Shown here one piece after another: positions 46,995 through 64,000 of a stretch of 64,000 nucleotides of DNA. Source of the DNA: Chloroflexota bacterium (GTDB taxonomy: Bacteria; Chloroflexota; Limnocylindria; P2-11E). The notes under the pieces are model-generated. The model did no database searches. It had not been told where the DNA came from and saw nothing but the letters and a program-made list of their open reading frames with translations. The stretch spans positions 189,747 through 253,746 of the forward strand of contig JBBPIQ010000002.1 of NCBI GenBank assembly GCA_038040345.1, read 5' to 3'. Numbering within the stretch: the stretch's first letter is position 1; every line of letters starts with the position of its first letter. The position numbers and the translations under genes were made by a program.

Positions 46995-47128
46995 GCACGA
47001 CGAATCGAATCCTCACTTTGACCCGCGTGTTCGACGCGCCGCGGGAACTTGTATGGAAGGCCTACACCGACCCAAAGCACATCGTGAAGTGGGCGTTCTC
47101 CAGGCGTAGTCGCGTAGAGTCCGCGTAG
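46991..47128 (+). pseudogene. truncated second SRPBCC gene (N-terminal about 36 codons only)
   Basis: VSTTNRILTLTRVFDAPRELVWKAYTDPKHIVKWA, then an unrelated tail and stop. Confidence 0.4.
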
Positions 47129-47147
47129 CACGTGGGGGAGCAGACGA

Positions 47148-47540: not shown

Positions 47541-47585
47541 GACTAGGCTTCACGTAGCGACCAAACCAACTCAGGGGGAGACAAC

Positions 47586-47996: not shown

Positions 47997-48011
47997 GGCC
48001 GGGCTCTTCGC

Positions 48012-48392
48012 CTAGCGGGTCTTTTCGATCTCGGCGACGCGGGCTCTTACGATCTTCGTCACGAGCCCGTACGGAAGCGGCTTGTTTGCGGGAAACTGAA
48101 GTGTGCCTTTGCTCTGCACGTAGGCCGTGAGTTCGTCGGCGTGCGCGTCGATGAACTTGCGGCTGGTGCCGTACAGGGCGGTGTGAGCCTTCCAATAGGC
48201 GAAGTACGCAACTCGTTTCCCGTCTTGCTTGAACCCCGCCATCCCGTAGCTGACGATCTCGGTCGCCTTCGGCGCGGCTGCCTTGATCGTCTGGCGCAGC
48301 TTCGTCAGTGCGGCGCGCCTGTCCTTCGGTGCGGACGCGATGTAGTCATCGACGGTCTTCGAGGGTTTCGTGGTGACCTTCCGTATCGGCAT
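48012..48392 (-). CDS. DUF1801 domain protein
   Basis: VAYFAYWKAHTALYG; real start at internal ATG of ORF 48012..48677. Confidence 0.55.
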   Translation of the reverse strand: MPIRKVTTKPSKTVDDYIASAPKDRRAALTKLRQTIKAAAPKATEIVSYGMAGFKQDGKRVAYFAYWKAHTALYGTSRKFIDAHADELTAYVQSKGTLQFPANKPLPYGLVTKIVRARVAEIEKTR

Positions 48393-48394
48393 TT

Positions 48395-48736
48395 CTAGAC
48401 CGCCGGCCCCGAGTGCTCGATCCAATACACCATTGCGAACACAACGGCGGCCGCGAAAACCTGCAGCGCGAGCACTGGGAGCGCCGCTCGTGGCGCGCGC
48501 GGGAGCCAGGTCAGCGCGAAATACCCCATCACCGCCAGTTGCACCGGCATGAGGAGCTGGAAGAGGTGCGCCTCGGTGCCCTCGTCGGCCTGGCGGACCA
48601 GCCCATTCGTGGCGACGAATCGCACACCTAGGACCAGCAGCAAAACGGGAATCGCGATCGGCAGCCAACCGCTCCAATGCGTTAGCGGTGAGGTTCGTGG
48701 ACTCGTGGTGGTCGCCATTGGCGAAATGCTACCCAC
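48395..48736 (-). CDS. small membrane protein
   Basis: 113 aa with three hydrophobic helices. Confidence 0.3.
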   Translation of the reverse strand: MGSISPMATTTSPRTSPLTHWSGWLPIAIPVLLLVLGVRFVATNGLVRQADEGTEAHLFQLLMPVQLAVMGYFALTWLPRAPRAALPVLALQVFAAAVVFAMVYWIEHSGPAV

Positions 48737-48748
48737 GACGCGACGACT

Positions 48749-49120
48749 TCATGATCCTCTGAAGCGATCGAGCTCGCGGCGCTCGCGCTTTGTCGGACGG
48801 CCGCTGCCCGGCTCTCGTACGGCTACGCGTGGCTGTCGCTTGACCACCGGCGCAGGCGGGCTGTGGTCGACCATGCACTTCGCCGCCGCCGGCGCCCCAA
48901 CGCGCTTTTCGATGATGACCACGACCTCGAGAATGCGGGGACGCCCGACGAACGCGTCGATGCGGTCGCCGACCTTCACCTGCGTCGACGCCTTGGCCGC
49001 ACCGCTGTTCACGCGCACATGGCCGCCACGGCAGGCGGCCGTCGCTTCCGACCGAGACTTATAGATCCGGACGGCCCACAGCCAGATGTCTACCCGGGTT
49101 TTTTCTGTGCCTGTGACCAT
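48749..49120 (-). CDS. S4-domain RNA-binding protein (Hsp15/HslR-like)
   Basis: RVDIWLWAVRIYKSRSEATAACRGGHVRVNSGAAKASTQVKVGDRI; basic C-terminal tail. Confidence 0.55.
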   Translation of the reverse strand: MVTGTEKTRVDIWLWAVRIYKSRSEATAACRGGHVRVNSGAAKASTQVKVGDRIDAFVGRPRILEVVVIIEKRVGAPAAAKCMVDHSPPAPVVKRQPRVAVREPGSGRPTKRERRELDRFRGS

Positions 49121-49486
49121 CAAGGCTCCGAGAGCGAACGTTAACGACTGGCACAAGCCTCGGTGCATCGCGACCGTCCCGGGCGCGGGCGACCGATTTG
49201 TCTCCGATTTCGACACCGAAGACACCTAGGCTCGTTTAGCGGCACCTCTCAGCGCATCGGACCCAAAGATAGGCCCGGTTTGTTTCCTGGGTTACGAAAT
49301 CGTCATCGGGGTGTGGCTCCGATTCGCGCATGATTCGGTTCGTGGCGCGACGTTGGTCGGTGCCACCTGCACGGCGATCTGATCGCTGACGCCAGGGGGG
49401 GCGGCGCGATCGTCTACACGGCGCAAAGAGCGTCGGAGCGCGCGGATACGACAAGACGAAGAAGATTTGAAAGAAGGCACCTCTCA

Positions 49487-50452
49487 ATGACAACGAACAT
49501 TACCCACGCGCGTCCTCGAGTTCGCGGTCCAAAATTACTGCTGACAGCTGCGGTCGCGGTCATGCTCGCGATGAGCATGCTCACGTTGGGAGGACCCACC
49601 GCGAACGCGGCGGCTCCAGGACCATCCCTTGGAATCGCTGGCAACTTCGCGATCCTCAGCGCAGCCGACGGGGGTTTGGGAGCGGTGACCTGTGTTGGCC
49701 CCGCCACGATCATCGGAAACCTGGGCTCCTCTGGCGTCCCGGCCTCGATCACTCCAGGCACGTGCACGATTACGGGGTCGCAGACCGCGCCGGTCTCGGC
49801 TGGAGTTGTAGCGGCCTTTGACAAGGCGTATGCGGCGCTTGGGCTCGTGCCGTGCACCACGACCATCCTTACTGCGGCCTACACGACCACGACGCTCTCG
49901 CTCGGGTCCGGTGTCACCTGTTTCCCGAACGGGCTGACGTTCACAGACAGCACGTTGATCCTCACCGGGAGCGGGCCCTGGCTCATCGAGGTCGGGACTC
50001 TGGCCACCGGCAACAGCGGCGCTCTCACGGGCACCAATCTCCATATGGTCCTGCCCGCTGGCGCGAACCCGTGTGACGTGACGTGGTGGGTCCGCGCGGG
50101 TGCGTCCATGACCACTTCGAACGCCACCGGCACGCAGTTCTTCGGCACGGTTCTCGCCGGGGCGGCAATCACCGTGATCGGGACGACCGTTGGAACCTTC
50201 AACGGGCGGGCTCTCGCCAAAGCCGCGGTGTCGATCACCGGCGGCACCTTCACCGGCTGCACAGGCGGAAGCCTTGGCGGCGGAGGCAAGAACAAGGACA
50301 AACACGAGGCCTGCAACCAGGGCGTAGGCAACGGGCCCGAGGACTGTGATCCGGGCAACTCGAACCAGGGCGACGACGACCGTTCGAACGACGAGAACGG
50401 CGGGACGCCTGGGCACCCTGGCCGCCAAGGCGGCAACGACAAGGACGACTAG
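49487..50452 (+). CDS. secreted DUF3494 (ice-binding-like beta-helix) family protein
   Basis: signal peptide; LGIAGNFAILSAADGGLGAVTCVGPATIIGNLGSSG motif; Thr/Gly-rich repeats; acidic Gly/Asp/Asn-rich tail. Confidence 0.65.
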   Translation: MTTNITHARPRVRGPKLLLTAAVAVMLAMSMLTLGGPTANAAAPGPSLGIAGNFAILSAADGGLGAVTCVGPATIIGNLGSSGVPASITPGTCTITGSQTAPVSAGVVAAFDKAYAALGLVPCTTTILTAAYTTTTLSLGSGVTCFPNGLTFTDSTLILTGSGPWLIEVGTLATGNSGALTGTNLHMVLPAGANPCDVTWWVRAGASMTTSNATGTQFFGTVLAGAAITVIGTTVGTFNGRALAKAAVSITGGTFTGCTGGSLGGGGKNKDKHEACNQGVGNGPEDCDPGNSNQGDDDRSNDENGGTPGHPGRQGGNDKDD

Positions 50453-50473
50453 GGCCGCACTGGCCAAGAACGA

Positions 50474-50514
50474 GGCGGAGGGACCCCTTCGGGGCCCTTC
50501 CGCCTTTTTTCTTT
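50474..50514 (+). terminator. rho-independent terminator between convergent genes
   Basis: GGCGGAGGGACCCC-TTCG-GGGCCCTTCCGCC hairpin followed by TTTTTTCTTT. Confidence 0.6.
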
Positions 50515-50524
50515 AGCTCGACTT

Positions 50525-51595
50525 CTAGAGCTCGCGATCCAGGGCGAGCAAGATCCTGCACATGCGGTCGACGCGGCGGCGTGACCAGCCGGGCTCTCGC
50601 TCATGCGTGTCGAGTCCCGGTGCGGAGTTCACCTCTAATACGGTGCACCTCTTTGGCAGCGCATCGGATGGTTGACTGAGGACTAGGTCCAGGCTGGCGA
50701 GGCGCAGGCCCATGTCGCCAACCACTCGGATAGCGAGCGCTCCTAGCTTGGGGTGCAGCACTTCAGTCACCAGCCGAACGTCACCACCCACGCCGAGATT
50801 GCCGCATGGCAGAAGCTCGACGCGTTGACCTGCGGTAGGCACCGTTTCGAGCGCCTGGCGACTGTGGGCGAGGTGCCTGCCCACCCGGACATCGTCTACG
50901 CGCAGCCGGGTCGGGTGCCCTGCTGCGCGGCTGCGTCGCTGGCCAGTCGCGATGAGCTTGCGAATACTGGAGTGGCCATCACCGAGCACGTACGGCCGCG
51001 TCTTCTCGCTCGCCATCAGGACCTCGCCGTCGAGGACGACTATCGAGCAGTCGCTGCCGCGTGCGATGCGCTGCACCAGGAGCTTCTTGGAGGCGGCGAA
51101 GACCTCACGGGCGGCCGCGTAGAACTGCGCGCGGGTATAGACGACGCACACGTGCTGGTCGCCGGAGCTGTCGTTTGGTTTGAGTAGCACTGGCAACCCG
51201 AGCCTCTGCGCGTACGCGTAGGCGCCCCCGATGCCGCGCGCCTCGTGGAGCCGCCCGTAATACGAGAAGCTGCGTCCAGTCGGGACCGTGTGGCCCAACT
51301 GCTTGAGCACACGCGCGGTGGCGTCCTTATCGAGAGCGATCGCCGCCGCACCAAGGGTGTTGAGGTCCCATTGCAGTCGGTGGAAGTAGCGCACGCGACC
51401 TGACGGAAGGGTGATCCTGCCCGAGTTGTCCGCCTTGGGTATGACCTCCAGTTTGGCACCGACGAGGTCGCAGGCCTCCTTGAGACGCGAGAGGAACGGC
51501 GTCTTCACCTCGCGATCTATGGCCGCCTGAGGCGATCGAGTTCGCGGGGCTCTCGCTTGACCACGGGCACAGGCGGGCTGTGGTCGACCAGACAC
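50525..51595 (-). CDS. ATP-grasp family ligase (RimK/GshB-like fold)
   Basis: C-terminal VLEVNSAPGL motif; alternative start about 51508; N-terminus overlaps the S4 remnant. Confidence 0.55.
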   Translation of the reverse strand: MSGRPQPACARGQARAPRTRSPQAAIDREVKTPFLSRLKEACDLVGAKLEVIPKADNSGRITLPSGRVRYFHRLQWDLNTLGAAAIALDKDATARVLKQLGHTVPTGRSFSYYGRLHEARGIGGAYAYAQRLGLPVLLKPNDSSGDQHVCVVYTRAQFYAAAREVFAASKKLLVQRIARGSDCSIVVLDGEVLMASEKTRPYVLGDGHSSIRKLIATGQRRSRAAGHPTRLRVDDVRVGRHLAHSRQALETVPTAGQRVELLPCGNLGVGGDVRLVTEVLHPKLGALAIRVVGDMGLRLASLDLVLSQPSDALPKRCTVLEVNSAPGLDTHEREPGWSRRRVDRMCRILLALDREL

Positions 51596-51720
51596 TTCGC
51601 CGCCGCACTGTTCACGCGAACCCGGCCACGGCAGGCGGCCGTCGCCTCCGAACGGGTCTTATAGATCCGGACGGCCCACAGCCAGATGTCTACCCGGGCC
51701 CTCTCGATATGGGCGTGAAA
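51517..51720 (-). pseudogene. degenerate duplicate of the S4-domain gene at 48749-49120
   Basis: about 190 bp near-identical to 48749-49110 with two in-frame internal deletions (about 54 and 117 bp) that remove the S4 core. Confidence 0.5.
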
Positions 51721-51752
51721 GGCGACGGAGCGGATTTTGTGCTCCCGTGCAT

Positions 51753-52262
51753 TCAACCATGGGGAGAGTTCTCGGAAGGCGAGCGATTTGGACTGAGCAG
51801 TCGCATGAAGATCAGGAGGCTGCTGACCAATAGGGCTGGCACATAGATGGCCACAATGACCCAATTCACGCCCAGCGAATACGTGAACACATTGTCGCGG
51901 ACCGATTGAACGATCGCGTTGACCGTATCTAGCATTCCGACGATCACGCAAAGCCAGACCAATGGGATCGCGCCACTGAAACGGGCACGGAGGGCGATGA
52001 GTGCCAGTAGTGCCAAAAATGCCGTCGCCAGGTCGCCATATCCGATCATCACCCGGAACTCCATCGGTACTCCCGCGTCGACGGAGCCGGGAGCCAGGAT
52101 CGTCCCGCCAACAACGCGAAACGCGTGGATCCAGAGCAGTGGCGCGAGGGCTACCTCCCGCGGCAACTTGGACAGGCGAGGCGCTACGTACCAGAAGCCG
52201 ATGAGCGCATATGCCGCCAGGCTCAACGTGAATTGAATTCCGAAGAGCGCGATTGGGTCCAT
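51753..52262 (-). CDS. membrane protein, 169 aa
   Basis: 4-5 predicted TM helices. Confidence 0.35.
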   Translation of the reverse strand: MDPIALFGIQFTLSLAAYALIGFWYVAPRLSKLPREVALAPLLWIHAFRVVGGTILAPGSVDAGVPMEFRVMIGYGDLATAFLALLALIALRARFSGAIPLVWLCVIVGMLDTVNAIVQSVRDNVFTYSLGVNWVIVAIYVPALLVSSLLIFMRLLSPNRSPSENSPHG

Positions 52263-52334
52263 GAATCGTCCCTCCCGTGGTCATAGTCTTCCATTCATGA
52301 ACATCTGGGATGTCGTACGCCAGAGGGTCGGAGC

Positions 52335-53231
52335 GTGATCCTCGTGACTGGCGCCACCGGCCTAAATGGTGGGGAGCTGGTGCGGAGGCTGTCGGCCCGC
52401 GGCGTCGCCGTACGTGCGCTGGTTCGCAATGCCACTGGCGCCAATGCTCCAAAAGCGGCCGAGTTGTCGCGGCTGGCCGGCGTCGAGGTTGCTGAAGCCG
52501 ATATGGCCCGTCCGCAGACTCTGGCGTCTGCGCTCAAGGGAATCGATCGAGCGATGCTCATTTCTTCCTCAGACCCGACCATGGGGGAGGTCCAGTCGGC
52601 ATTCATCGACGCGGCAGCCCTTGCTGGTGTGCGTCATGTCGTGAAGCTCTCCGGAATAATCCCCGACCTCAACTCGCCTTTCAGGTTTGCTCGCATGCAC
52701 GGCGAGATCGAGCAGCACCTGGAGGCGTCGGGGATGGCCTTCACGCATCTCCGCGCGGGCGAGTTCATGCACGCGTACTTCCGCCAGGTGCCGTCGATCG
52801 TCAACAGAGGTGCCTTGTCCTTGCCAATGGCTGACGCGCGGATCGCAGCCATAGACATCGGCGACATCGCTGACGTGGCCGCGGACGTGCTCACCGGTTC
52901 GGGACACGAAGGCAAGACGTACCCGATCACGGGTCCGGATGCGCTCACGATGACCCAAGTCGCAGCTGCGCTCTCCGCTGCGACGGGCAAGCCGATCCGC
53001 TACGTCGACGTGCCGCCCGAAGACGCCAAGGCCGCCCAGCTCGCCGCGGGCATGCCTGCGTATCTCGCAGATGGACTGGCCGAGCTCTTCGCGGAGCGTC
53101 GTAAGGGAAAAGAGGCGACCGTGTCGCCGGTGATCCAGACGATCTTCAAGCGCCGACCCTTGAGCTTCGAAGACTTCGCTCGACGCCATGCGGCGGTCTT
53201 CCGCGGCGAACAGCCGGCGCCGAGGGTCTGA
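52335..53231 (+). CDS. NmrA-like NAD(P)-binding (atypical SDR) protein
   Basis: GTG start; ILVTGATGLNGGELVRRL Rossmann motif. Confidence 0.7.
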   Translation: MILVTGATGLNGGELVRRLSARGVAVRALVRNATGANAPKAAELSRLAGVEVAEADMARPQTLASALKGIDRAMLISSSDPTMGEVQSAFIDAAALAGVRHVVKLSGIIPDLNSPFRFARMHGEIEQHLEASGMAFTHLRAGEFMHAYFRQVPSIVNRGALSLPMADARIAAIDIGDIADVAADVLTGSGHEGKTYPITGPDALTMTQVAAALSAATGKPIRYVDVPPEDAKAAQLAAGMPAYLADGLAELFAERRKGKEATVSPVIQTIFKRRPLSFEDFARRHAAVFRGEQPAPRV

Positions 53232-53504
53232 CGAGTCTCCGCGATCGCGCCGGTCGATCTAAGAGCCGCGCGTTCTCCAGTTCGCACTCGGACTTAAGAC
53301 CAGGCTCGCGGCGCGACCGAGCGGTCGTCGGTCTCGACAGGGCATAGTCGGACTGCTAGTACTACCGAGTTCGGCGTACTGCGGTCATGGGCAAGGCCGC
53401 CCGGGGTGGGGAGGAGTCATTAGGACGAACCTTCCGCAGCGTCGTGGCGGCACGCCTGCAAGACCGAGCACCGCGCTCGAACAGAGATAGAGGGGAGACA
53501 CGGA

Positions 53505-54125
53505 ATGACCGAATCGCGTATTAGCCGACGTGGGATCTTGAAGACCGCTGGGGCGCTAGGCGTTATCGGAGCGCTTTCGTCATCGGCGACCGCGCTCGCG
53601 GATGACGGCGAAGGGGGAGAAGGGGCAAGATTCCGCTGGGACATCATCAGCATCGACTTTACGACCGGCACGGTGTCGGCGGGGGGCAGCGCGTCCGCCC
53701 GCGCAAACCTCGACACGGGGATCATCACGCTCACCGGCTCGGGGACCTTCCGACCTGGCCAGCGCAAAGCGGTGACTGGCGGGGGGACCTGGTCGACGAC
53801 CGGGACCGCGGGTGTCGGCCACGGCACCTACAGGGTGACTGAGCTCGTCGAGTGGCACCTGGCCCCGGGGACGTTCCCGCTGACGATCGACGCCATCGGC
53901 GACAAAGCCGACGCTCGCGCAGGACTGGCGGTCCTTCGCGTCCGGTACTCAGACCAGAGCGAGGGGATCCTCGTGGTGAGCTGCACGATCGCTGGGACCC
54001 CGTCTTCGGTGTTTGAGGGGATCAGGACGTCCAGGGGCTTTGTCTATTACTGGAACGGCGACATCGCGGCAGACAACGTGAACCACACGCTCTTCCACTT
54101 CCTGTCAAAGGCGGAAAAGGACTAA
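53505..54125 (+). CDS. Tat-signal secreted hypothetical protein
   Basis: twin-arginine motif SRRGILKTAGALGVIGAL...A; Thr/Gly-rich. Confidence 0.5.
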   Translation: MTESRISRRGILKTAGALGVIGALSSSATALADDGEGGEGARFRWDIISIDFTTGTVSAGGSASARANLDTGIITLTGSGTFRPGQRKAVTGGGTWSTTGTAGVGHGTYRVTELVEWHLAPGTFPLTIDAIGDKADARAGLAVLRVRYSDQSEGILVVSCTIAGTPSSVFEGIRTSRGFVYYWNGDIAADNVNHTLFHFLSKAEKD

Positions 54126-54214
54126 GACCGCTGAGAGCAGAGGAAGGCGGCGCAGCGGCCGCCGCCTTCCTGACCCCGCGAGCCCTCGACACTTCGGCTA
54201 TTCAGCGCTGCCGC

Positions 54215-54793
54215 TCAAGCGCTCGAACCAAAACCAGAGGAGTCGCTCGTGTCCGGCGGCACTGGCGCTCCGTCCTTCGTTCCCGTGGAGACGAAGTTCG
54301 CCTTCAGCTCGCGCAACGGGTCAGGGCCGTTCGAGTGCCTAGCGCTCGCACCGAGCGCTGTGCGGGGTACTGCGGGCAGCGGCAACTTCGATACCAACGT
54401 CATGTATGTCACCGGGACGATCACCTCGGCTGAGGTCAACGGGCAGACCGCGGTCTTGAAGGGGTGCGGCGGTCTTGAAATTGATCGTTGTGCGTGCAGG
54501 GAGCGGCAGGAGTAGGCGCGCTTCTGGTCGATGATGATCGGCGCGTTCAGGTGCTCGATCCGCTCGACGTCGGGCTGCCCGTAGTGCGGCATGAAGCCTT
54601 GGACGAAGAAGGTGAACGTCTCGTTGAGCTGCCGCTGCGCCTCGGCGGCGATCGTGTCGAACACGAGCGAGGACTTCCCCGAGCCGGAGATGCCGGTGAA
54701 GACTGTGATCTTCTGCTTCGGGATGGACAGCGAGACGTTCTTGAGGTTTTTCTCGCGGGCGCCGTGGACCTCGATGAACGGATGGTCGGTCAT
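54215..54793 (-). pseudogene. UvrA-like ABC ATPase, N-terminal fragment only
   Basis: first about 93 codons match the UvrA N-terminus (GAREKNLKNVSLSIP, Walker A GISGSGKSSL, FDTIAAEAQRQ, IIIDQK); the remainder of the ORF is unrelated. Confidence 0.5.
54441..54480 (+). other. tRNA-Ser(UGA)-derived 5' fragment
   Basis: exact 16-nt match TGCGGCGGTCTTGAAA to the D-stem/anticodon arm of the tRNA at 56651; partial repeat CCGCGGTCTTGAA just upstream. Confidence 0.4.
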
Positions 54794-54900
54794 GCGTCGA
54801 CCCTAGAGCGCCGCGAGCATCACTTCAGGCAGCGCCGGATGCTGGCGGCGTCGAGGTCCTTCTCGCACCGCCGCTTGAGCATCCGGCGTTCTTACTCGGG

Positions 54901-55374
54901 CTAGCGGGCGTGCGCGGCCACCCAAGTGGCGAGGCTGTCGAGAGACCCGCGGGCGCCCTCCGCGGCGTAGTACTTGGCGACCTTCTCGTCTCTCTCTTCC
55001 TTGCTGCCGAAGACCAAACGGAGTGTCGCCTCGGTCGTGGCGCCGCGCTCGGCGAGCGTCAGGACGGTCTTTACCTGGTTGGGGTCGTCCTTGCCCATCC
55101 CGTACATCCAGACGATACGTTCCGGTGGGGTGATCTCTTTCCAAACGAAGTGGTTCGGGTACTCGCTGCCGTCGGGGCCGTGGATCGTCGCGTCCCAGAC
55201 ACCGCCCGGCTTGAAGTCGAACGAGTGCGTGGTGATCTCGCCGCCCTTCGGCGCACACCACTCCTCGAGGTGGGCGGCGCTGGTGAACGCGTCGAACACG
55301 AGTCGTCGTGGCCCCTCGATGATCCGCGAGACTACGATCTCGCGCTCCGCCTCAGTGCTTGTTTCGGTTGCCAT
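54901..55374 (-). CDS. SRPBCC (AHSA1-like) family protein
   Basis: RIIEGPRRLVFDAFTSAAHLEEWCAPKG... Confidence 0.7.
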   Translation of the reverse strand: MATETSTEAEREIVVSRIIEGPRRLVFDAFTSAAHLEEWCAPKGGEITTHSFDFKPGGVWDATIHGPDGSEYPNHFVWKEITPPERIVWMYGMGKDDPNQVKTVLTLAERGATTEATLRLVFGSKEERDEKVAKYYAAEGARGSLDSLATWVAAHAR

Positions 55375-55741
55375 CTGTGTGCTCCTTCTGCTGCAATTTC
55401 TTCACGTATTCGTTTAGCCTCTCGAAGTTCTCGTTCCAGTACTGCTCGAATCCGACGACCCATTCGTGGACCGGCTCAAGGCCGCGCGCGTCGAGCGCGT
55501 AGAGCCGCTGCTGTCCCGACTCGCGAACGCGCACGAGGCCGACCTCGCGCAGCACACGAAGGTGCTTCGACGTCCGGGGCTGCGTGATCCGCAGCGCTCG
55601 GGCGAGCTCGTTCACCGGGCGCTCGCGCCCCTTCAGGAGCATGAGGATCCGGCGACGCTGCGGCTCGGCCACCGCGTTGAAGGCATCGGAGGTGGTCGCG
55701 GCTCGGGCCATGTCGCTTGAAATATATGTCCATATCGGCAT
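55352..55741 (-). CDS. ArsR/SmtB family transcriptional regulator
   Basis: FNAVAEPQRRRILMLLKGRERPVNELARALRITQPRTSKHLRVLREVGLV; start at 55741 or 55711. Confidence 0.7.
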   Translation of the reverse strand: MPIWTYISSDMARAATTSDAFNAVAEPQRRRILMLLKGRERPVNELARALRITQPRTSKHLRVLREVGLVRVRESGQQRLYALDARGLEPVHEWVVGFEQYWNENFERLNEYVKKLQQKEHTDGNRNKH

Positions 55742-55848
55742 ATGTCAAGAAGCGGTGCCGGAAGATTGGCTCGCAAACATTTGATCAGCCTCGTTGTTTC
55801 GCGAGAGAGCTCTTGGGGCGATTCAGATCACCATCGCAAGCTCGGTCC

Positions 55849-56328
55849 TCAGCGCACCGCTTTCTTTACGAACGCGCCGATCCTTGCCTCTTCGGCCGCA
55901 GCCAACTCCGTCAGCGCGTAGGCGACCGGCCACATAGCGCCTTCGTCGAGGTTCGCCGCGTCGCTGAAGCCGAGCGTCGCGTATCTCGTCTTGAACTTCT
56001 GCGCGTCTTGGAAGAAGCAGACGACCTTGCCGTCTTTGGCATACGCGGGCATCCCGTACCAGAGCTTCGGAGACAGGGCTGGCGCGCTGGCTTTGACGAT
56101 CGCGTGGAGCCGCTTGCCCAGGGCGCGATCCGGTTCCCGCATCTGGGCGATCTTCGCGAGCACCGCGCTCTCCCCGTCCGCCTTGTCCGCGGCCGCCTTC
56201 AGCTCTTGGGCGCGCTCCTTCATCGCGGCTCGTTCCTCCACGGTGAATCCCTTGGACGTCTTGCCGCTCGCGGTGGTGCTCTTGGCGGACTTCTGCGCGC
56301 CCTTCTTTGCAGGTTTCCTCTGAGCCAT
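55849..56328 (-). CDS. DUF1801 domain protein with Lys-rich N-terminus
   Basis: [19 protein letters not shown]. Confidence 0.6.
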
Positions 56329-56650
56329 GGTGTCTGCTGACCTCCTGCGCGTCTGCGGCGCTGAGCCGCGGCCCCAACATTACGGAGTCTGAGCCCCGCC
56401 TCGCACTTTAGTGGGTCGCCGTCCGCGAGGATGCGATGGGTGGCATGGGAGTCGCGATGCCGCTGGTAGCGGTCGCAGTCGCACCGCACCTTTCGCCTTA
56501 TCGTCCTGCACCACGCGTTAAGCAACGCTCTTCTCGCGAGGGCCCAAGCAGCCAACGCCCGTCGGCCTTGATGATGGGCATCAGAAATGGGCATCAGTTC
56601 TCCAACCCTGGTGTCCCAAGTCTGTTCAGGAGCCCCATCATTGTTGCCTC

Positions 56651-56737
56651 GGAGGGGTGGCAGAGCGGTCGAATGCGGCGGTCTTGAAAACCGCTACGTC
56701 CTTAGGGGCGTCGTGGGTTCGAATCCCACTCCCTCCG
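56651..56737 (+). tRNA. tRNA-Ser (anticodon UGA)
   Basis: acceptor GGAGGGG/TCCCTCC, anticodon stem GCGGT/ACCGC with loop CTTGAAA, long variable arm, T-loop GTGGGTTCGAATCCCAC, discriminator G; CCA not encoded. Confidence 0.8.
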
Positions 56738-56744
56738 CAGTGTG

Positions 56745-57020
56745 CAACTGACGATGTCAACTGACATCTGTGGTCTTGCTCTTTTTGGCGCAGCCGCTCG
56801 TACGGAGTCTGACCGCCCAGGGCGCCGAGGGGCCGGTCGAAAGTGTAGAAGTCCTCCCACTCTTGAAGTTTGGTCATGAACAGCTCGCTCTGGTCGACGA
56901 CGACGCCATTGAGCTCATCCCATCGCCGGGCATCCAGGAGCCTCTGTCGCCGGAGGGTTGAGGGAGCGAGGAGTTGGGCAGCACGTTCGCGTTGGCCTTG
57001 CCGCTCGCCGGATCGGACGG
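56745..57020 (-). mobile_element. DDE transposase/integrase C-terminal remnant
   Basis: minus-strand frame reads ...LQEWEDFYTFDRPLGALGGQTPYERL, resembling the rve-core YNxxRPHxxLGGxTP motif; no N-terminal catalytic region present. Confidence 0.4.
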
Positions 57021-57022
57021 GG

Positions 57023-57763
57023 TCAGTTCTTCTCGGCGTCGGAAGCGCTGACGAATCGGTAGCCGGCGCCCGGGACCGTCTCGATGTACCGGGGCTTGTG
57101 CCAGTCGTCCTGGAGCTTCGCCCGCAGCGCCCGCACGTGGCGGTCCACGACGTTGCTCTCGATCACGAAGTCGGTGCCCCAGAGCGCGTCGAGGATCTGC
57201 TCGCGCGTGAGGACGCTCCCGGCGTTGGCGGCGAGAAGGTACAGCAGTGCCTGCTCGAGCGAGGTGAGGTGCAGCTCGTGTTCGCCAGCGAGCACCTTTC
57301 GGTTGAGAACGTCGATCTCGAGGTCACCAATGCGCAGGCGCGGGACCAGCTCTACGGCGCTGCCGTGGGTCCGGCGGATCACCGCGTGGGCGCGGGCGAC
57401 CAGATCGTCCGGCACGAAGGGGATGCCGATGTAATCGTCCGCGCCGCGCTCGAAGGCGTCGAGCTTCCCGCGGAGGTCGCTGCGCCGGGTGAGGGCGATG
57501 ACCGCTGTCGACCCCTGGGCGCGCGCCTCGTTGATGAGCTGGATCCCCCGACCGGCCTCGATGTCTATGTTGACCAGAAGGAGATGGGGCTTCCACTCCA
57601 CGATCGCGCCCTTGGCCTGATTCACCGTTTCCGCGATCCGGCGGGCGTATCGCCCATGCCGCAGGGTGAGGTCGACGGTGTTCGCGAGCGCTTTGTCGCC
57701 GATGACCAAGAGCACGCGGACCGCGCGGTCGGATTCTCTTGCGGCCGGCTCGGCCTCTGCCAT
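57023..57763 (-). CDS. OmpR-family response regulator (orphan)
   Basis: receiver domain followed by winged helix (ETVPGAGYRFV); no histidine kinase gene adjacent. Confidence 0.75.
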   Translation of the reverse strand: MAEAEPAARESDRAVRVLLVIGDKALANTVDLTLRHGRYARRIAETVNQAKGAIVEWKPHLLLVNIDIEAGRGIQLINEARAQGSTAVIALTRRSDLRGKLDAFERGADDYIGIPFVPDDLVARAHAVIRRTHGSAVELVPRLRIGDLEIDVLNRKVLAGEHELHLTSLEQALLYLLAANAGSVLTREQILDALWGTDFVIESNVVDRHVRALRAKLQDDWHKPRYIETVPGAGYRFVSASDAEKN

Positions 57764-57772
57764 CGGCCCATT

Positions 57773-58342
57773 CTAGGCTTGGCTGTTCTCGTAAATACGC
57801 ACGCCGAGCTCGCGGCTCAGCGGAAGTGGCCAGCCGGAGGGACCGCGCCCAACCGATACCGGATCGTCATAGCTACCGAGGAGCACCAAGAGACCCGCGT
57901 GCGTCCCGACAGGCGCTCCGATCCAGACCAGACCTACCGCGTGGCTCGTCGTTCCGTCGCCGGCCGGCTCTTGGCTGAGGGTGACCGGAGGAGCGCCGCC
58001 GGTATTGATACCAGATTCGGTCACGGCGAGCCGGAAGTGCGAAGGCGGACTTTGCGAGCCCTCGGCGATCCTCGGCCCGTAGTGTTTCGGCACCGCCCAG
58101 CTCGAGACCAACGGTTCGAGAGCCGCGCGTTGTGCCGCGTCGGCCTCGGTCGACTCTCCCGCGTGGAGCGCTCTGAGCATCGCGACGTCGCGTCGGTCGT
58201 CGATGCTCGTCAATAGAGGTATGGCGGGTTCGATCCCGTGTGGCGACCCCGCCACGATTCGCGCGGCCGCGCCGTCCACATCTGCGACGCGCAGCCGGAA
58301 CTCTTCGAGCACGAGGACGCGGATGGGGTCAGCGATCGACAC
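57773..58342 (-). CDS. hypothetical protein upstream of the response regulator
   Basis: 189-aa ORF with normal composition, 10-nt gap to the regulator gene. Confidence 0.35.
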   Translation of the reverse strand: MSIADPIRVLVLEEFRLRVADVDGAAARIVAGSPHGIEPAIPLLTSIDDRRDVAMLRALHAGESTEADAAQRAALEPLVSSWAVPKHYGPRIAEGSQSPPSHFRLAVTESGINTGGAPPVTLSQEPAGDGTTSHAVGLVWIGAPVGTHAGLLVLLGSYDDPVSVGRGPSGWPLPLSRELGVRIYENSQA

Positions 58343-58463
58343 TGTCTTGAACCCTGACGCCTGGGGGTGTCCTTGTCATGACCTTGCCGTCATCTGCGCC
58401 GCATCTGCCGCATGACTGTTTGGTCATGACTCGAGCAAGCAACCAGCCCAAGATGCAGTCGAG

Positions 58464-59441
58464 GTGTCCGACATGAAGAACTCAAAGGCACTCGCTGCGA
58501 CGGTCGTCATCGCGCTCATCATTGCGATCGGCGCGATGGCAGGCACCGCTGCGAATGCGGCAACTTCCACTGTTCCCCTGGGAACGGCTGCCAGCTTCTC
58601 GGTCCTCGGCGGTCTGGCAGTGACCAACACAGGCCCGACCACCACCGACAAAGACGTAGGGGTTTGGCCCGGTACCTCGGTGGGCGCGTGGCCGCCCGGA
58701 ATAGCCGGCGGGGCAATCCACGCGGGTGACGCCGTCGCGCAGCAGGCCCAGAGCGACCTGACCACCGCGTATAACAACGCCGCAGGACGAACGCCGTTCA
58801 CGGTTGTGGGTGGCGATCTCGTCGGGCAGACCCTCGTTGGTGGCGTCTATAGAGGCGGCACGCTCGGTCTCACAGGAGTGCTGACCCTCGATGGGCAGAA
58901 CGATCCAGCGTCCGTCTGGATCTTCCAGACGCCGGCAACCCTCATCACCGGGTCGTCGAGTCTTGTGAGCTTCATCAACGGCGCGAGCCCGTGCAACGTC
59001 TTCTGGCAGGTCGGGAGCTCAGCGACTCTGGGAACGGGCTCCACCTTCGTCGGCACGATCATGGCTCTAACCAAGATCACGGTCACTACCGGCGTGACCG
59101 TCTATGGCAGAGCGCTGGCCCGGAATGATGCCGTGACATTGGACAACGACCGATTCCTAACGTCAGTGTGCGCATCTGCGCTAAACATTCCGCCGACGCG
59201 GCCACCGTTCACGGTTGCACCTTCGGCAACTCCGATAGCCGCGCCCACAGCGACCCCGATCGGTGCGGCCACTCCAACCGCAGCGCCGACAGTCGCTCCA
59301 ACCGCAGCGCCGACAGTTCATCTAACAGTCCTGCCATCAACGAGCACGGCGGAGTCGTGGGGTCCGCTCGCGCTGCTTGGCCTGGCCCTGGCCAGCTTCG
59401 GGGCGCTTCTGCTGCTTCGTAGACCACTTCGGAACTTCTAG
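58464..59441 (+). CDS. secreted DUF3494 (ice-binding-like) protein with Pro/Thr/Ala linker and C-terminal hydrophobic-basic tail
   Basis: signal peptide; LGTAASFSVLGGLAVTNTGPTT; PTAAPTVAPTAAPT linker; C-terminus LPSTSTAE + hydrophobic helix + RRPLRNF. Confidence 0.65.
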   Translation: MSDMKNSKALAATVVIALIIAIGAMAGTAANAATSTVPLGTAASFSVLGGLAVTNTGPTTTDKDVGVWPGTSVGAWPPGIAGGAIHAGDAVAQQAQSDLTTAYNNAAGRTPFTVVGGDLVGQTLVGGVYRGGTLGLTGVLTLDGQNDPASVWIFQTPATLITGSSSLVSFINGASPCNVFWQVGSSATLGTGSTFVGTIMALTKITVTTGVTVYGRALARNDAVTLDNDRFLTSVCASALNIPPTRPPFTVAPSATPIAAPTATPIGAATPTAAPTVAPTAAPTVHLTVLPSTSTAESWGPLALLGLALASFGALLLLRRPLRNF

Positions 59442-59763
59442 CGAGATCCTCGCGCAAGACCGCCAAGCCAGGTGAAGATCCAGCTCAGTGCACTTGGCTT
59501 GGCGGCGGCGTGTGCGAGCAACTTGTTCGCGGATTCTCAGCTCCCGGACGCAAGTCGATCCATTGTTCAGGATCCTTCTCATAGTTGCGCTCGTCGTCAT
59601 AGTTCCGCGTGTTGGTCGACGAGGCGATCCGCCTGCTACTACAGCAATTCCTGTAGCAGAGACGAGCGACGGCCGCGCACGATCGGGGACGACACCGGAC
59701 GGGCTGCGCGATTTTCTCGAATGAATCGACGTTAGCGGACGATCATGGACGGGCCGGGGCGCA

Positions 59764-59818
59764 CTTGAAAACCGCTGAGGGTGCAAGCTCTCCGTGGGTT
59801 CGAATCCCACCCCCTCCG
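59764..59818 (+). other. partial tRNA-Ser-like sequence (anticodon loop to 3' end), att-like
   Basis: CTTGAAAACCGCT ... GTGGGTTCGAATCCCAC CCCCTCC G shares anticodon loop, T-arm and acceptor 3' strand with tRNA-Ser but has a different variable arm and no D-arm. Confidence 0.5.
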
Positions 59819-59833
59819 CAGATCGTTAGGGAA

Positions 59834-60292
59834 TCAACGGCGGGCTTTTAGCGCGGCCTCGATCTCGTCGAGGTGCTCGCGGCGGTGATCGGCGCGTACC
59901 GGATTGATCGGGCTGTCGGGGTCGCCCGGCCAAAGCCGGTCCAGGGGCAGCTTCGCTACGCGCGCGTCCGTCTCGTCGGCGATCCGCAGGGCGAACTTCG
60001 CGGCCTCTCTCGGCGCGATCGCGTGGATCAGCGGACGGGTCGAGTCGTTGAGCCAGTCGCCGCCGGGCTCGGCGTCCGACGTCGCCCACGGTTCGCCGCG
60101 ATCGATCTTCTCGGCGAGGACCAGAACGCGGATGTCCCAGTACGCGATGTGACCGAGCACGCCGGCGACGGTCCAAAACTCGTTCACGGGAGCGGTGAGC
60201 GCGTCGTCGTCCAAGCTTTTGATGAGCGCGCGCAGACGCTCGCGTTCGCGGGTGTTCGCATCGATGTAGGAGCGATCGTCAGCCATCGTCGT
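59834..60292 (-). CDS. hypothetical protein, possibly DinB/YfiT-like
   Basis: start at MADDRSYID inside ORF 59834..60487; family assignment tentative. Confidence 0.4.
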   Translation of the reverse strand, partial: TTMADDRSYIDANTRERERLRALIKSLDDDALTAPVNEFWTVAGVLGHIAYWDIRVLVLAEKIDRGEPWATSDAEPGGDWLNDSTRPLIHAIAPREAAKFALRIADETDARVAKLPLDRLWPGDPDSPINPVRADHRREHLDEIEAALKARR

Positions 60293-62738: not shown

Positions 62739-62804
62739 CGTTCGGTCCGGCACCTAAAGGAGAGGCCCTGCCGCGCTGGCAGGGCCTCTTTCTATGCTGA
62801 ACAC

Positions 62805-63619: not shown

Positions 63620-63712
63620 GGGGAGGTCGCATAGTTGGCCTAGTGCGCGGGTTTGCTAAACCCGTAAGGATGCCGTAAGGCGCCTTCGAGGGTTCGAATC
63701 CCTCCCTCCCCG
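63620..63712 (+). tRNA. tRNA-Ser (anticodon GCU)
   Basis: acceptor GGGGAGG/CCTCCCC, anticodon stem CGGGT/ACCCG with loop TTGCTAA, long variable arm, T-loop GAGGGTTCGAATCCCTC. Confidence 0.8.
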
Positions 63713-63725
63713 CAGTTGTGATGTC

Positions 63726-64000
63726 TCAGGACATCGAGGACACCTGTCTCACGACATTGTGGACAGGTGTCCGCGCGCCGAAATAGCGGCGGCTCGGATC
63801 GAGGGTGAGCTCGCGTAGCAGCTGACCGTCGTCGCGGACGATCCGGACGTTCGCGCCGGCGATGAGCAGACGGATCCGCTCACCCTTGTGCGCGCGTCCG
63901 ACGTAGATGTGCCGCAGCTGGCTCAGGTAGCGCAGCGTGACTCGACCGCAGCTATCCACCTTGTCATGGCGGACCCGGAAGTCGGTGACCGTCTCCGGCA
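63726..64000 (-). mobile_element. transposase/integrase gene, C-terminal part (continues beyond window)
   Basis: stop 13 nt downstream of the tRNA-Ser(GCU) 3' end on the opposite strand; C-terminus ...GERIRLLIAGANVRIVRDDGQLLRELTLDPSRRY; family assignment tentative. Confidence 0.45.

What the first reader, a model, noticed from the sequence alone, without database searches (positions are those of the whole stretch)
63713..64000. Second tRNA-Ser followed by nested palindromes and a transposase gene end
After tRNA-Ser(GCU) come GATGTCTCAGGACATC and the perfect 11-bp inverted repeat GGACACCTGTC...GACAGGTGTCC, then the C-terminus of a minus-strand transposase or integrase ORF that runs out of the window. 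This is probably the edge of an insertion element or island continuing beyond position 64000.
Basis: seen in the sequence. Interest (0 to 1): 0.5.

Follow-up and report, generated by a model that had tools for sequence, protein, structure and literature searches.

The report
tRNA-homing IS481 insertion sequence end
The window ends inside an ordinary-looking 1.27-kb jumping gene of the IS481 family, but relatives show that this group lands, in one orientation, at the 3' end of almost any tRNA gene without damaging it, a habit I could not find described in the literature.

Summary
tRNA-Ser(GCU) lies at 63620-63713. A minus-strand ORF (stop 63726-63728) runs off the window.

The ORF is the C-terminal beta-barrel and tail of an IS481-family DDE transposase. 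The palindromes lie in the element's right terminal repeat, which starts at 63717 and holds two tandem 23-bp units.

A syntenic relative, L003 (90% identical across IS end, tRNA and XdhC gene), holds the whole element. It is about 1,270 bp, with TGTG...CACA ends and one 395-aa transposase that passes the NCBIfam IS481 cut-off. It is an insertion sequence, not an island.

The unexpected result concerns the family. The right end abuts a tRNA gene in 10 of 10 genome loci, directly or one IS length away. In 113 metagenome flanks, at least 68 show a tRNA T-arm (42 complete tRNAs, 22 anticodons). The end sits 3-4 nt past the discriminator, always with the same end facing the tRNA.

Insertion duplicates 15-16 bp of the tRNA 3' end, so the tRNA stays whole. 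Tandem stacks occur.

15-bp duplications are known in IS481. I found no report of tRNA homing. How the target is recognised is inferred.

The parts
63620..63713 (+). tRNA-Ser(GCU), intact. This is the target gene next to which the element sits. The discriminator base is G63712.
   Evidence: ARAGORN. Rfam RF00005, 55.1 bits. Acceptor-stem pairing 63620-63626 with 63705-63711 (repeat I7).
63702..63716 (+). The 15 bp next to the element (CTCCCTCCCCGCAGT). It covers the last 3 nt of the T-stem, the 3' strand of the acceptor stem, the discriminator and a 4-nt trailer. This is the predicted target-site duplication; a second copy is expected beyond the other IS end, outside the window.
   Evidence: By analogy with 15-16 bp identical flanks in L010, L117, L025, L076, L005, L061, the outer pair of L011, and the Arthrobacter plasmid L133. 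There is no second copy inside the window.
63717..63772 (-). Right terminal inverted-repeat region (IRR) of the IS. It runs from the terminal TGTGA through two tandem 23-bp units (63722-63744 and 63745-63767) to the start of a third.
   Evidence: Direct repeat D1 and inverted repeat I1. The same 25-mer lies at the left end of L003, L004 and L007. Similarity between copies next to different tRNAs stops exactly at ...CACA. Two independent Logan contigs stop at window 63746, so the last 30-mer begins at 63717.
63720..63735 (.). Palindrome GATGTC-TCAG-GACATC inside the terminal unit.
   Evidence: One pair is broken without compensation in L008, L011 and L012 (GATGAC...GACATC).
63738..63772 (.). 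Perfect 11-bp inverted repeat GGACACCTGTC / GACAGGTGTCC with 13 nt between the arms.
   Evidence: Not conserved across the family.
63729..64000 (-). 3' part of the IS481-family transposase gene: the last 90 codons, corresponding to residues ~306-395 of the 395-aa protein. It is cut by the window end. The stop codon is at 63726-63728.
   Evidence: Translation. 82 of 90 residues are identical to L003, with 23 synonymous and 9 non-synonymous codon differences. Homologues are listed.
63804..63977 (-). Six-stranded beta-barrel domain that follows the catalytic core (fragment residues 8-65).
   Evidence: AlphaFold2: mean pLDDT 78 overall, 85-96 across this stretch. The best Foldseek matches are IstA of IS21 (8q4d, probability 0.99, E 0.12) and TnsB of the V-K CAST. 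Both are weak by E-value.
63729..63782 (-). Disordered C-terminal tail (...PVHNVVRQVSSMS) encoded by the terminal repeat itself.
   Evidence: pLDDT below 50 for residues 73-90. The tail motif V-H/R-x-V-V/L-R-Q/H-x-S is conserved in homologues.

Best explanation
Positions 63717-64000 are the right end of an IS481-family insertion sequence. By inference from the syntenic copy, it is about 1,270 bp long, has TGTG...CACA termini and carries one 395-aa HTH-DDE transposase.

It has integrated 4 nt past the discriminator base of tRNA-Ser(GCU), with the transposase gene convergent with the tRNA.

The 'nested palindromes' are the transposase-binding terminal repeat, made of two tandem 23-bp units. The reading frame runs into this repeat, which is why the protein tail is conserved.

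The element belongs to a large subgroup of IS481 that homes to tRNA genes. The transposase makes staggered joins 15-16 bp apart. One join is at or 1 nt past tRNA position 76 and the other is inside the T-stem. IRR always ends up on the tRNA side. Repair duplicates the 15-16 bp, so the tRNA gene is rebuilt intact and a copy of its 3' end is left at the far (IRL) side.

What is shown: family assignment, element ends, site and orientation specificity, duplication length, tandem stacking.

What is inferred:
- The window's copy is complete beyond 64000.
- Transposition is copy-out-paste-in through a circle whose junction keeps a 15-16 nt spacer.
- The target is read directly by the protein as double-stranded DNA, most likely the conserved T-arm (GGTTCGAATCC) a fixed 15-16 nt from the joining site.
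For: **Family**
- The syntenic full-length protein in L003 passes NCBIfam NF033577 (239.8 bits against a cut-off of 224). It has HTH_32, rve and rve_3 domains.
- Catalytic-type motifs are present: WQTD143, SD202NG, GKVE244R.

**Synteny**
- One collinear 993-bp alignment at 89.8% identity covers the IS end, the tRNA-Ser gene and the XdhC gene.

**Element ends**
- Similarity among copies beside different tRNAs starts at TGTG and stops at CACA.
- Logan contigs break at window 63746.

**tRNA homing**
- In 10 of 10 genome loci found by protein similarity alone, a tRNA gene lies on the opposite strand. It starts 12-16 nt after the matched coding segment in five loci, 68 nt after a truncated match in L012, and about one IS length away in L005, L006 and L011. 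ARAGORN calls no tRNA in L009, but its flank reads as a tRNA 3' end cut by the contig end; L004 ends 3 nt past the IS end.
- Of 113 usable metagenome flanks, 42 are complete tRNAs with 22 different anticodons and 26 more have a T-arm.
- A further 15 of the 45 remaining flanks match a genuine tRNA 3' end at 10 or more of 12 positions, against 4.8% of random positions.
- The distance from the IS end to the T-arm motif is 15 or 16 nt in 65 of 68 flanks. The IS end lies 3-4 nt past the discriminator in 61 of 64 unique flanks.
- One identical transposase (P0074) sits beside Ser, Asn, Leu, Tyr and Glu tRNAs.

**Orientation**
- None of about 30 true left ends has a T-arm in its 40-nt flank.

**Duplication**
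- Flanks match at 13-15 of 15 positions in 7 of 29 assembled copies.
- A perfect 15-bp duplication, TGGTGCCCCGGGCGG, flanks the copy in a finished Arthrobacter plasmid.

**No room for a guide RNA**
- The 1,270-bp element has only 74 nt upstream and 8 nt downstream of the ORF.
- It contains no T-arm-like motif on either strand.

**Circle intermediate**
- L011 has two 100% identical copies in tandem, separated by a foreign 16-nt tRNA-like spacer. The whole pair is flanked by a 16-bp duplication.

**Published background**
- ~15-bp duplications are a known class within IS481 (PMC10045372).
Against: - The window holds only 284 nt of the element and none of the catalytic domain. Its 90-aa fragment matches no Pfam or NCBIfam model. 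The contig past 64000 could not be retrieved.
- About 27% of sampled right ends have flanks that are not tRNA-like, as does the single viral-contig hit.
- In 22 of 29 assembled copies the two flanks differ. I attribute most of this to short-read assemblers joining identical copies. Real rearrangements cannot be excluded.
- Nothing here shows how the target is recognised. The fixed distance fits equally well a ruler set from the T-arm or from the 3' end of the gene.
- The sample was collected with one 19-nt end motif and is not a census of complete genomes.
Confidence: 0.85

Rival explanations
1. The edge of a genomic island or prophage integrated into the tRNA by a tyrosine or serine site-specific recombinase. 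On this reading the repeats are an att site.
For: tRNA 3' ends are the classical integration site of such elements (established knowledge). A short copy of the tRNA 3' end does flank the element in relatives. Many sampled flanks are tRNA 3' halves that look like att duplicates of islands.
Against: - The ORF belongs to a DDE (rve) transposase of the IS481 family.
- At the syntenic locus the element is 1.27 kb with no cargo and no recombinase.
- The duplicated segment has a constant 15-16 bp length whichever tRNA is hit, as expected from a staggered cut.
Confidence: 0.03
2. An IS481 element that happens to lie beside a tRNA, by chance or through a loose preference for intergenic or terminator regions, with no tRNA specificity.
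For: About 27% of sampled right ends are not next to tRNA-like sequence. More distant IS481 relatives (32-38% identity) have no tRNA within 1.5 kb.
Against: - A position within 1 nt of a tRNA 3' end in a fixed orientation is expected by chance at roughly 1 in 100,000. This is my estimate from ~50 tRNA genes per 4-Mb genome.
- Observed: at least 68 of 113 flanks, with the offset fixed to within 1 nt, plus 10 of 10 loci found through the protein alone.
Confidence: 0.03
3. tRNA homing is real, but the transposase does not read the duplex DNA sequence itself. It is tethered by a host factor, or attracted by a structure or process at tRNA genes, such as a transcription R-loop, a paused RNA polymerase, a tRNA-processing enzyme, or hairpins on single-stranded DNA during replication.
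For: Eukaryotic tRNA-targeting retrotransposons (Ty3, Ty1, Dictyostelium TRE) work by tethering to Pol III factors (established knowledge; review PMC5911963 listed). The sequences of the 15-bp duplications differ widely between targets.
Against: - Many flanks are only the 3' half of a tRNA, or less, with no tRNA gene body (L019, L063, L084, L104, L119, L121 and the Arthrobacter plasmid). These are unlikely to be transcribed or processed as tRNAs.
- The only strongly conserved block in the flanks is the T-arm at a fixed distance.
- The subgroup occurs in at least three phyla, which argues against dependence on a special host partner.
Confidence: 0.2
4. The palindromes are functional RNA or DNA hairpins, for example a replacement terminator or processing signal for the tRNA whose own trailer was displaced, or a barrier to read-through into the transposase gene. 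On this reading they are not protein-binding repeats.
For: The + strand folds into two hairpins at -34 kcal/mol, z = -4.2. They lie directly downstream of the tRNA in its direction of transcription.
Against: - No T-run follows, and the scan finds no terminator-like site.
- The 11-bp stem is not maintained across the family: 31-52% paired per position, with no compensatory pattern.
- The 6-bp stem is broken without compensation in L008, L011 and L012.
- What is conserved is a direct repeat at both IS ends.
Confidence: 0.1

Closest known systems
IS481 family insertion sequences (ISfinder), in particular the members that make ~15-bp target duplications (e.g. ISMac4 and ISA0963-1, and the eukaryotic IS481EU)
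   Same: - Single-ORF HTH + DDE (rve/rve_3) transposase that passes the NCBIfam IS481 model.
- Length of about 1.27 kb.
- TGT...ACA termini with terminal inverted repeats.
- 15-16 bp duplication (PMC10045372).
   Different: The classical members are reported with short sequence preferences or none; IS481 itself prefers NCTAGN (my recollection). Here the target is the 3' end of essentially any tRNA gene, in one orientation. The paper on 15-bp duplications does not contain the word tRNA.
ISAba32 subgroup of the IS1202 family, which targets XerCD recombination sites (bioRxiv 10.1101/2022.12.17.520857)
   Same: - Distantly related DDE transposases with TGT ends.
- Insertion abutting a conserved host site at a distance equal to the duplication length.
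- A fixed orientation.
- Many different copies of the site are used.
- Tandem insertions at one site.
- A 'safe haven' interpretation.
   Different: The target is an xrs/dif site rather than a tRNA gene. The duplication is 5-6 bp rather than 15-16 bp. The protein here scores far below the cut-off of the ISNCY model (82 against 250).
Tyrosine-integrase genomic islands and prophages that integrate into tRNA gene 3' ends
   Same: Same stretch of the chromosome. The tRNA gene stays intact. A copy of the tRNA 3' end is left at the far border.
   Different: The enzyme differs: DDE transposase rather than tyrosine recombinase. No attP/attB homology is needed. One element uses at least 22 kinds of tRNA rather than one. 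The repeat is a fixed 15-16 bp staggered-cut duplication. The element is 1.27 kb with no cargo.
Eukaryotic Pol III-gene-targeting retrotransposons (Ty3, Ty1, Dictyostelium TRE5/TRE3)
   Same: A retroviral-integrase-superfamily enzyme places the element at a fixed short distance from any tRNA gene. This is read as a safe-haven strategy (review PMC5911963, listed; otherwise my knowledge).
   Different: Those elements are tethered by TFIIIB, TFIIIC or Pol III, which bacteria lack. They are retroelements. Most insert upstream of the tRNA gene.
Tn7-like and CRISPR-associated transposons with attachment sites downstream of tRNA genes (e.g. type V-K CAST)
   Same: Orientation-specific insertion downstream of tRNA genes by a DDE transposase that has a similar beta-barrel domain (PMC11406308 listed).
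   Different: Those need TniQ or TnsD, the AAA+ regulator TnsC and often a guide RNA, and each targets one site. Here there is a single protein, and the element has no space for a guide.

Membership tests
IS481 family (ISfinder / NCBIfam NF033577) | Transposase matches the family profile above the curated cut-off | tested here: met
   The L003 syntenic full-length protein scores 239.8 bits against a cut-off of 224. IS3, ISNCY, IS630 and IS21 models all score below their cut-offs. The window's own 90-aa fragment lies outside the model (profile covers residues 8-293) and gives no hit. For the window copy this rests on 82 of 90 identical residues and 90% nucleotide collinearity with L003.
IS481 family (ISfinder / NCBIfam NF033577) | DDE catalytic triad in an rve (RNase H-like) core | tested here: met
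   rve and rve_3 domains are found in L003. The motifs WQTD143, SD202NG and GKVE244R are present. Residue assignment is by motif, not by structure. This cannot be tested on the window itself, because the core lies beyond 64000.
IS481 family (ISfinder / NCBIfam NF033577) | One long ORF without programmed frameshift (unlike IS3) | tested here: met
   A single 395-aa ORF in L003. More than 100 homologues are 391-397 aa long.
IS481 family (ISfinder / NCBIfam NF033577) | Termini 5'-TGT...ACA-3' with imperfect terminal inverted repeats | tested here: met
   TGTGTGAG... at the left end and ...GAGACATCACA at the right end. A shared 25-mer, GATGTCTCAGGACATCG(A/T)GGACACC, is present in inverted orientation at the two ends. 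In the window the end reads TGTGATG from 63717.
IS481 family (ISfinder / NCBIfam NF033577) | Target-site duplication within the family's range (2-15 bp according to ISfinder as quoted in PMC10045372) | tested here: met
   15-16 bp in L010, L117, L025, L076, L005, L061, L011 and the Arthrobacter plasmid. Not observable in the window, which holds only one end.
IS481 family (ISfinder / NCBIfam NF033577) | Copy-out-paste-in transposition through a circular intermediate | not testable with these tools
   Only indirect evidence: the tandem dimer in L011 with a 16-nt foreign spacer between IRR and IRL.
Integrase-type tRNA-borne genomic island or prophage | Tyrosine or serine recombinase gene at the tRNA-proximal border | tested here: not met
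   The tRNA-proximal gene is a DDE transposase. No recombinase is present in L003 between the tRNA-Ser and tRNA-Met genes.
Integrase-type tRNA-borne genomic island or prophage | Kilobases of cargo bounded by direct repeats of the tRNA 3' part | tested here: not met
   The element is 1,268-1,401 bp between its ends in 28 of 29 assembled copies and 1,181 bp in L062. The repeat is a constant 15-16 bp.
IS1202 family, ISAba32 (xrs-targeting) subgroup | Transposase of the IS1202 / ISNCY type, and insertion 5-6 bp from a XerC/XerD site | tested here: not met
   The ISNCY_2 model scores 82 bits against a cut-off of 250. The flanks are tRNA ends, not xrs sites. It works like this group but is not a member.
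Tn7-like / CAST elements at tRNA attachment sites | Multi-gene transposition module (TnsB with TnsC and TniQ/TnsD, with or without CRISPR effector and guide) | tested here: not met
   The element holds one gene, with 74 nt and 8 nt of non-coding sequence.

The most novel reading that the evidence does not exclude
This IS481 subgroup is a protein-only transposon that homes to any tRNA gene. One ~395-aa DDE transposase, with no guide RNA and no accessory protein, recognises the generic T-arm and acceptor end of a tRNA gene as duplex DNA. It inserts at position 76/77 in a single orientation, with a 15-16 bp duplication that keeps the tRNA intact. The property is shared across Chloroflexota, Dormibacterota and Actinomycetota and has not been described. 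If so, it would give the unexplained '15-bp duplication' class of IS481/IS1202/IS481EU transposases a defined natural target for structural work.
Probability: 0.5. Interest if true: 0.7.

Novelty: new variant of a known kind. Interest (0 to 1): 0.55.

Why it matters
**Target selection.** If correct, this is a simple, single-protein bacterial counterpart of two known strategies: the tRNA-gene 'safe haven' used by eukaryotic retrotransposons, and the tRNA sites used by integrases. It offers a tractable system for asking how a DDE transposase measures a 15-16 bp stagger from a conserved DNA motif.

**Tool potential.** A small, orientation-specific integration system aimed at sites present in every genome could be useful.

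**Practical consequences for genome analysis.**
- It explains why soil and freshwater metagenome contigs so often end right after tRNA genes. Both Logan contigs of this locus stop 30 nt into the element.
- It explains why flanks get shuffled between copies during assembly.
- It shows why a tRNA next to an 'integrase core domain' gene should not be scored as a genomic-island border.

For the window alone, the finding is an ordinary IS end.

Tried and rejected
1. **Retrieving the window's own continuation failed.** Exact-protein look-up of the neighbouring XdhC gene found only two Logan contigs, both ending at window 63746. The best NCBI homologue on a 375-kb contig (P0080) is not on record.

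2. **Domain scans of the 90-aa fragment gave no hit**, because the fragment lies downstream of the modelled core.

3. **The first alignment (A1) was too diverse for the search for related loci**. A closer set (A2) worked.

4. **Carry-over of the previous target's 15 nt was considered and set aside.** I considered that the IS carries the previous target's 15 nt at its left end, for example by ligation of the circle-junction flap. This was suggested by mismatched flanks in L003, L007 and L009. Ten contigs with an identical transposase show only two left flanks permuted among five tRNAs, which is the signature of assembly joins across identical repeats. It is not formally excluded.

5. **Hairpin function of the palindromes is not supported** by conservation.

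6. **A guide-RNA mechanism of the IS110/IS1111 type is rejected.** There is too little non-coding space, and no T-arm-like sequence in the element.

7. **The second IS481-like remnant, after tRNA-Ser(UGA), was tested for the same habit.** Two related loci are not next to tRNAs, so this stays unresolved.

ISfinder and TnPedia could not be consulted.

9. **A viral-contig scan** gave one hit with a non-tRNA flank.
Full report
**1. The observation**

The sequence is as described.

- ARAGORN finds tRNA-Ser with anticodon GCT at 63620-63713 on the + strand. Rfam's tRNA model scores 55.1 bits.
- Downstream lie GATGTCTCAGGACATC (63720-63735) and the perfect 11-bp inverted repeat GGACACCTGTC (63738-63748) / GACAGGTGTCC (63762-63772).
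- On the minus strand an ORF is open from the window edge down to a stop at 63726-63728.

Two refinements apply. The ORF overlaps the palindromes rather than following them. The underlying repeat is a tandem direct repeat of 23 nt, 63722-63744 and 63745-63767.

Perfect 11-nt hairpins are rare in the window: six, giving 9 seeds against a simulated mean of 1.6. The stretch folds well, at -34 kcal/mol with z = -4.2. No terminator-like site is scored.

**2. What the ORF is**

The 90 residues visible in the window match no Pfam or NCBIfam model. A search of the large protein collection returned 70 relatives. All are 56-156 aa fragments, mostly from Limnocylindria (Chloroflexota) and Dormibacterota assemblies. 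The longer ones carry rve_3. All share the tail ...VHNVVRQVSSMS or close variants.

A scan of one genome per species gave ten loci. One of them, L003 (a Chloroflexota MAG), is the same locus as the window. A single 993-bp alignment at 89.8% identity runs through the IS end, the tRNA-Ser(GCU) gene and the XdhC-like gene.

L003 holds the full gene, 395 aa.

- It has HTH_32/HTH_29, rve and rve_3 domains.
- It scores 239.8 bits on NCBIfam 'IS481 family transposase' against a cut-off of 224. IS3, ISNCY, IS630 and IS21 models all score below their cut-offs.
- The motifs WQTD143, SD202NG and GKVE244R are present.

The window therefore shows residues ~306-395, an extension beyond the modelled core. 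AlphaFold2 gives this part a confident six-stranded beta barrel and a disordered tail. Its nearest solved folds are the barrel that follows the catalytic domain in IstA (IS21) and in TnsB, though the E-values are weak.

Between the window and L003, 23 codons differ synonymously and 9 non-synonymously. The gene has therefore been under purifying selection.

**3. The element and its ends**

I compared copies that sit beside different tRNAs. Similarity begins at TGTG(T/C)... on the left and stops at ...GAGACATCACA on the right. In L003 the element spans about 5006-6275, or 1,270 bp. It has 74 nt before the ORF and 8 nt after it.

The 25-mer GATGTCTCAGGACATCG(A/T)GGACACC occurs in inverted orientation at both ends. 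The right end carries two tandem units.

In the window the terminal T is 63717. Independent support comes from two Logan contigs from different runs, both of which stop at window 63746. With 31-mers (my recollection of how Logan was built), the last 30-mer starts at 63717, which is where a repeat would make the assembly graph branch.

Across 118 distinct right ends:
- the last ~24 nt and an internal direct repeat (CACGATGTC) are conserved;
- the 11-bp inverted repeat is not, with each pair standard in only 31-52% of sequences;
- the 6-bp stem is broken without compensation in L008, L011 and L012.

I therefore read the palindromes as a by-product of tandem transposase-binding repeats in this lineage, not as a selected hairpin.

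**4. The unexpected part: the family homes to tRNA genes**

*Genome loci.* All ten genome loci were found through the protein alone.

- In five loci an annotated tRNA on the opposite strand starts 12-16 nt after the matched coding segment. These are Ser-GCT twice, Leu-TAG, Arg-ACG, and (68 nt after a truncated match in L012) Cys-ACA.
- In L005 (Lys-TTT), L006 (Lys-CTT) and L011 (Leu-GAG) the tRNA lies about one IS length further on.
- In L005 and L011 the intervening sequence is a second IS copy inserted between the first copy and the tRNA.
- ARAGORN calls no tRNA in L009 or L004. The L009 flank reads as a tRNA 3' end cut off by the contig end, and L004 ends 3 nt past the IS end.

Of 113 with at least 30 nt of flank:

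| Flank | Count |
|---|---|
| Complete tRNA on the opposite strand (22 anticodons, 13 amino acids) | 42 |
| tRNA T-arm but no complete gene | 26 |
| 15-nt spacer followed by the left end of another copy | at least 4 |

- Flanks with a T-arm but no complete gene are either cut by the contig end or are tRNA 3' halves that stop in the anticodon loop.
- Of the 45 flanks without a T-arm hit, 15 begin with a 10-12 of 12 match to a genuine tRNA 3' end. Random positions do so 4.8% of the time.
- The distance from the IS end to the T-arm motif is 15 nt (36 cases) or 16 nt (29 cases) out of 68. The IS end lies 3-4 nt past the discriminator in 61 of 64 unique flanks, that is at or 1 nt beyond where CCA ends.
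- The window fits this pattern, at 4 nt past G63712.
- By chance such a position and orientation would be hit roughly once in 100,000 insertions (my estimate).

*One protein, many tRNAs.* A single transposase sequence (P0074, identical in all ten contigs) sits beside Ser-GCT, Asn, Leu, Tyr and Glu tRNAs.

*Orientation.* None of about 30 genuine left ends has a T-arm in its flank. Orientation is therefore strict: IRR faces the tRNA, and the transposase gene is convergent with it.

*Breadth.* The protein family is large, with at least 7,988 proteins at E of 1e-30 or better; many sit on ~1.3-kb contigs, the length of the element.

**5. Target duplication**

The left flank of every copy is a ~15-nt piece that looks like a tRNA 3' end.

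- The two flanks are identical or nearly so over 15-16 bp in L010, L117, L025, L005, L076, L061 and L087, which is 7 of 29 assembled copies. The same holds around the L011 pair.
- In a finished plasmid of an Arthrobacter isolate, whose transposase is 46% identical, the flanks are a perfect TGGTGCCCCGGGCGG on both sides. The right-hand copy continues into a tRNA-like T-arm.

The other 22 copies have unlike flanks. I first considered a mechanism in which the element carries over the previous target's 15 nt. The P0074 contigs argue otherwise. Only two left flanks occur (a Leu-type and a Ser-type 15-mer), and they are permuted among five right-hand tRNAs. The matching partners are present in the set but lie on different contigs. 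That is what short-read assemblers do with identical 1.27-kb repeats. Real IS-mediated rearrangements may also contribute.

A 15-16 bp duplication places one joining site just past the tRNA. The other falls in the 3' strand of the T-stem. After repair the tRNA gene is complete again, which agrees with ARAGORN calling the adjacent tRNAs.

**6. How it most likely works**

*Shown:* the family, the ends, the site, the orientation, the duplication length and the stacking.

*Inferred:*

(a) Copy-out-paste-in transposition, as in IS3 and IS481 relatives (established knowledge). Support comes from L011, which has two 100% identical copies in tandem. They are separated by a 16-nt spacer that is the 3' end of a different tRNA-Leu. 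The whole pair is bracketed by a 16-bp duplication of tRNA-Leu(GAG). This is what recombination of a circle junction (IRR, 16 nt, IRL) into a resident copy would leave. Transposition of a dimer would give the same result.

(b) Protein-only recognition of duplex DNA. The element has no room for a guide RNA and contains no T-arm-like sequence. tRNA 3' halves without a gene body are used as targets. The only strongly conserved block in the flanks is the T-arm at a fixed distance. Which domain reads it is unknown. The C-terminal barrel seen in the window is not unique to the homing clade, because more distant IS481 relatives that are not beside tRNAs are matched through to residues 372-395 of the query.

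(c) A safe-haven rationale.

**7. Comparison with what is known**

The element meets every IS481 criterion I could test.

- ~15-bp duplications are a recognised class in IS481, IS1202 and the eukaryotic IS481EU. Their origin is described as unexplained (PMC10045372). That paper does not mention tRNA.
- The closest behavioural parallel among bacterial ISs is the ISAba32 subgroup of IS1202. It abuts XerCD sites in one orientation, at a distance equal to its duplication, and with tandem insertions (10.1101/2022.12.17.520857).
- Integrase islands, Pol III-targeting retrotransposons and Tn7-like or CAST elements share the target but not the machinery.

Ten full-text searches found no description of tRNA homing by IS481 elements. 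The library lacks many subscription journals, and I could not consult ISfinder. The novelty claim is therefore provisional.

**8. Verdict**

For the window itself this is an ordinary IS end. The copy is probably complete beyond 64000, because L003 and the contigs L137, L140 and L142 carry full copies at the same tRNA-Ser/XdhC locus.

The added value is the family-level target specificity. I rate it a new variant of a known kind, of moderate interest.

Noticed in passing
window 56739-56877 (next to tRNA-Ser(UGA) at 56651-56738): The other tRNA-Ser in the window is also followed, 3 nt past its discriminator, by an IS481-like right end. The end reads TGTGCAACTGACGATGTCAACTGACATC..., and the minus-strand remnant reads 'LQEWEDFYTFDRPLGALGGQTPYERLRQK'. 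Only ~135 bp is left. It is of a different, shorter type without the beta-barrel extension. Two related remnants elsewhere (L147, L149) are not beside tRNAs, so it is unclear whether this type also homes to tRNAs.
   Followed up: partly
L011 5006-7561 (Ilumatobacteraceae MAG, contig ctg8): Two 1,270-bp copies, 100% identical, lie in tandem. They are separated by a 16-nt spacer (ACTGTGGGCGAGGGGG) that looks like the 3' end of a different tRNA-Leu. The pair as a whole is flanked by a 16-bp duplication of tRNA-Leu(GAG). This suggests a circle junction recombined into a resident copy, or transposition of a dimer.
   Followed up: partly
L137-L146 (ten metagenome contigs carrying the identical transposase P0074): Only two left flanks occur, and they are permuted among five right-hand tRNAs. 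Short-read assemblies are evidently joining flanks across identical IS copies. Contigs that cross this element should not be trusted for synteny.
   Followed up: yes
L019, L063, L084, L104, L119, L121, L045/L048/L110 and L133 (right flanks): The element often abuts a tRNA 3' half that stops in the anticodon loop, with no tRNA gene body. These look like the att duplicates left at the far end of integrase-type islands, which would make island borders secondary targets. Some flanks keep only 13-22 nt of a tRNA end (L051, L077, L083, L103); these are unexplained.
   Followed up: partly
L005 6025-7633: An 82-aa C-terminal remnant of one copy is followed by a second, divergent IS481-like copy. That copy's ORF is split in two (138 + 228 aa). 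It has a 14-of-15 matching duplication and sits beside tRNA-Lys(UUU). This is successive targeting of one tRNA by different members of the group.
   Followed up: partly
L003 4260-4914: Left of the element in the syntenic MAG lie an HNH-endonuclease-like ORF (4426-4914, minus strand) and tRNA-Met (4260-4335). The left flank of that copy does not match its tRNA-Ser. This may be an assembly join, so what lies beyond 64000 in the window's genome cannot be read from L003.
   Followed up: no
window 46000-60000: G+C is 0.63-0.66 here against 0.65-0.72 in the rest of the window. The stretch includes tRNA-Ser(UGA) and the IS remnant, so it may be acquired DNA.
   Followed up: no
window 14722, 23136, 32419, 54141, 62761: Five other hairpins with perfect stems of at least 11 nt and loops of 3-20 nt. 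The one at 62761-62789 lies just after the stop of the xanthine/uracil permease gene (62738), which suggests a terminator.
   Followed up: no
L152 12433-12451 (IMG/VR contig IMGVR_UViG_3300022561_000102): This is the only hit of the right-end motif in the viral collection. It is not next to a tRNA, and its transposase tail differs. It is an example of the ~27% of ends with non-tRNA flanks.
   Followed up: partly
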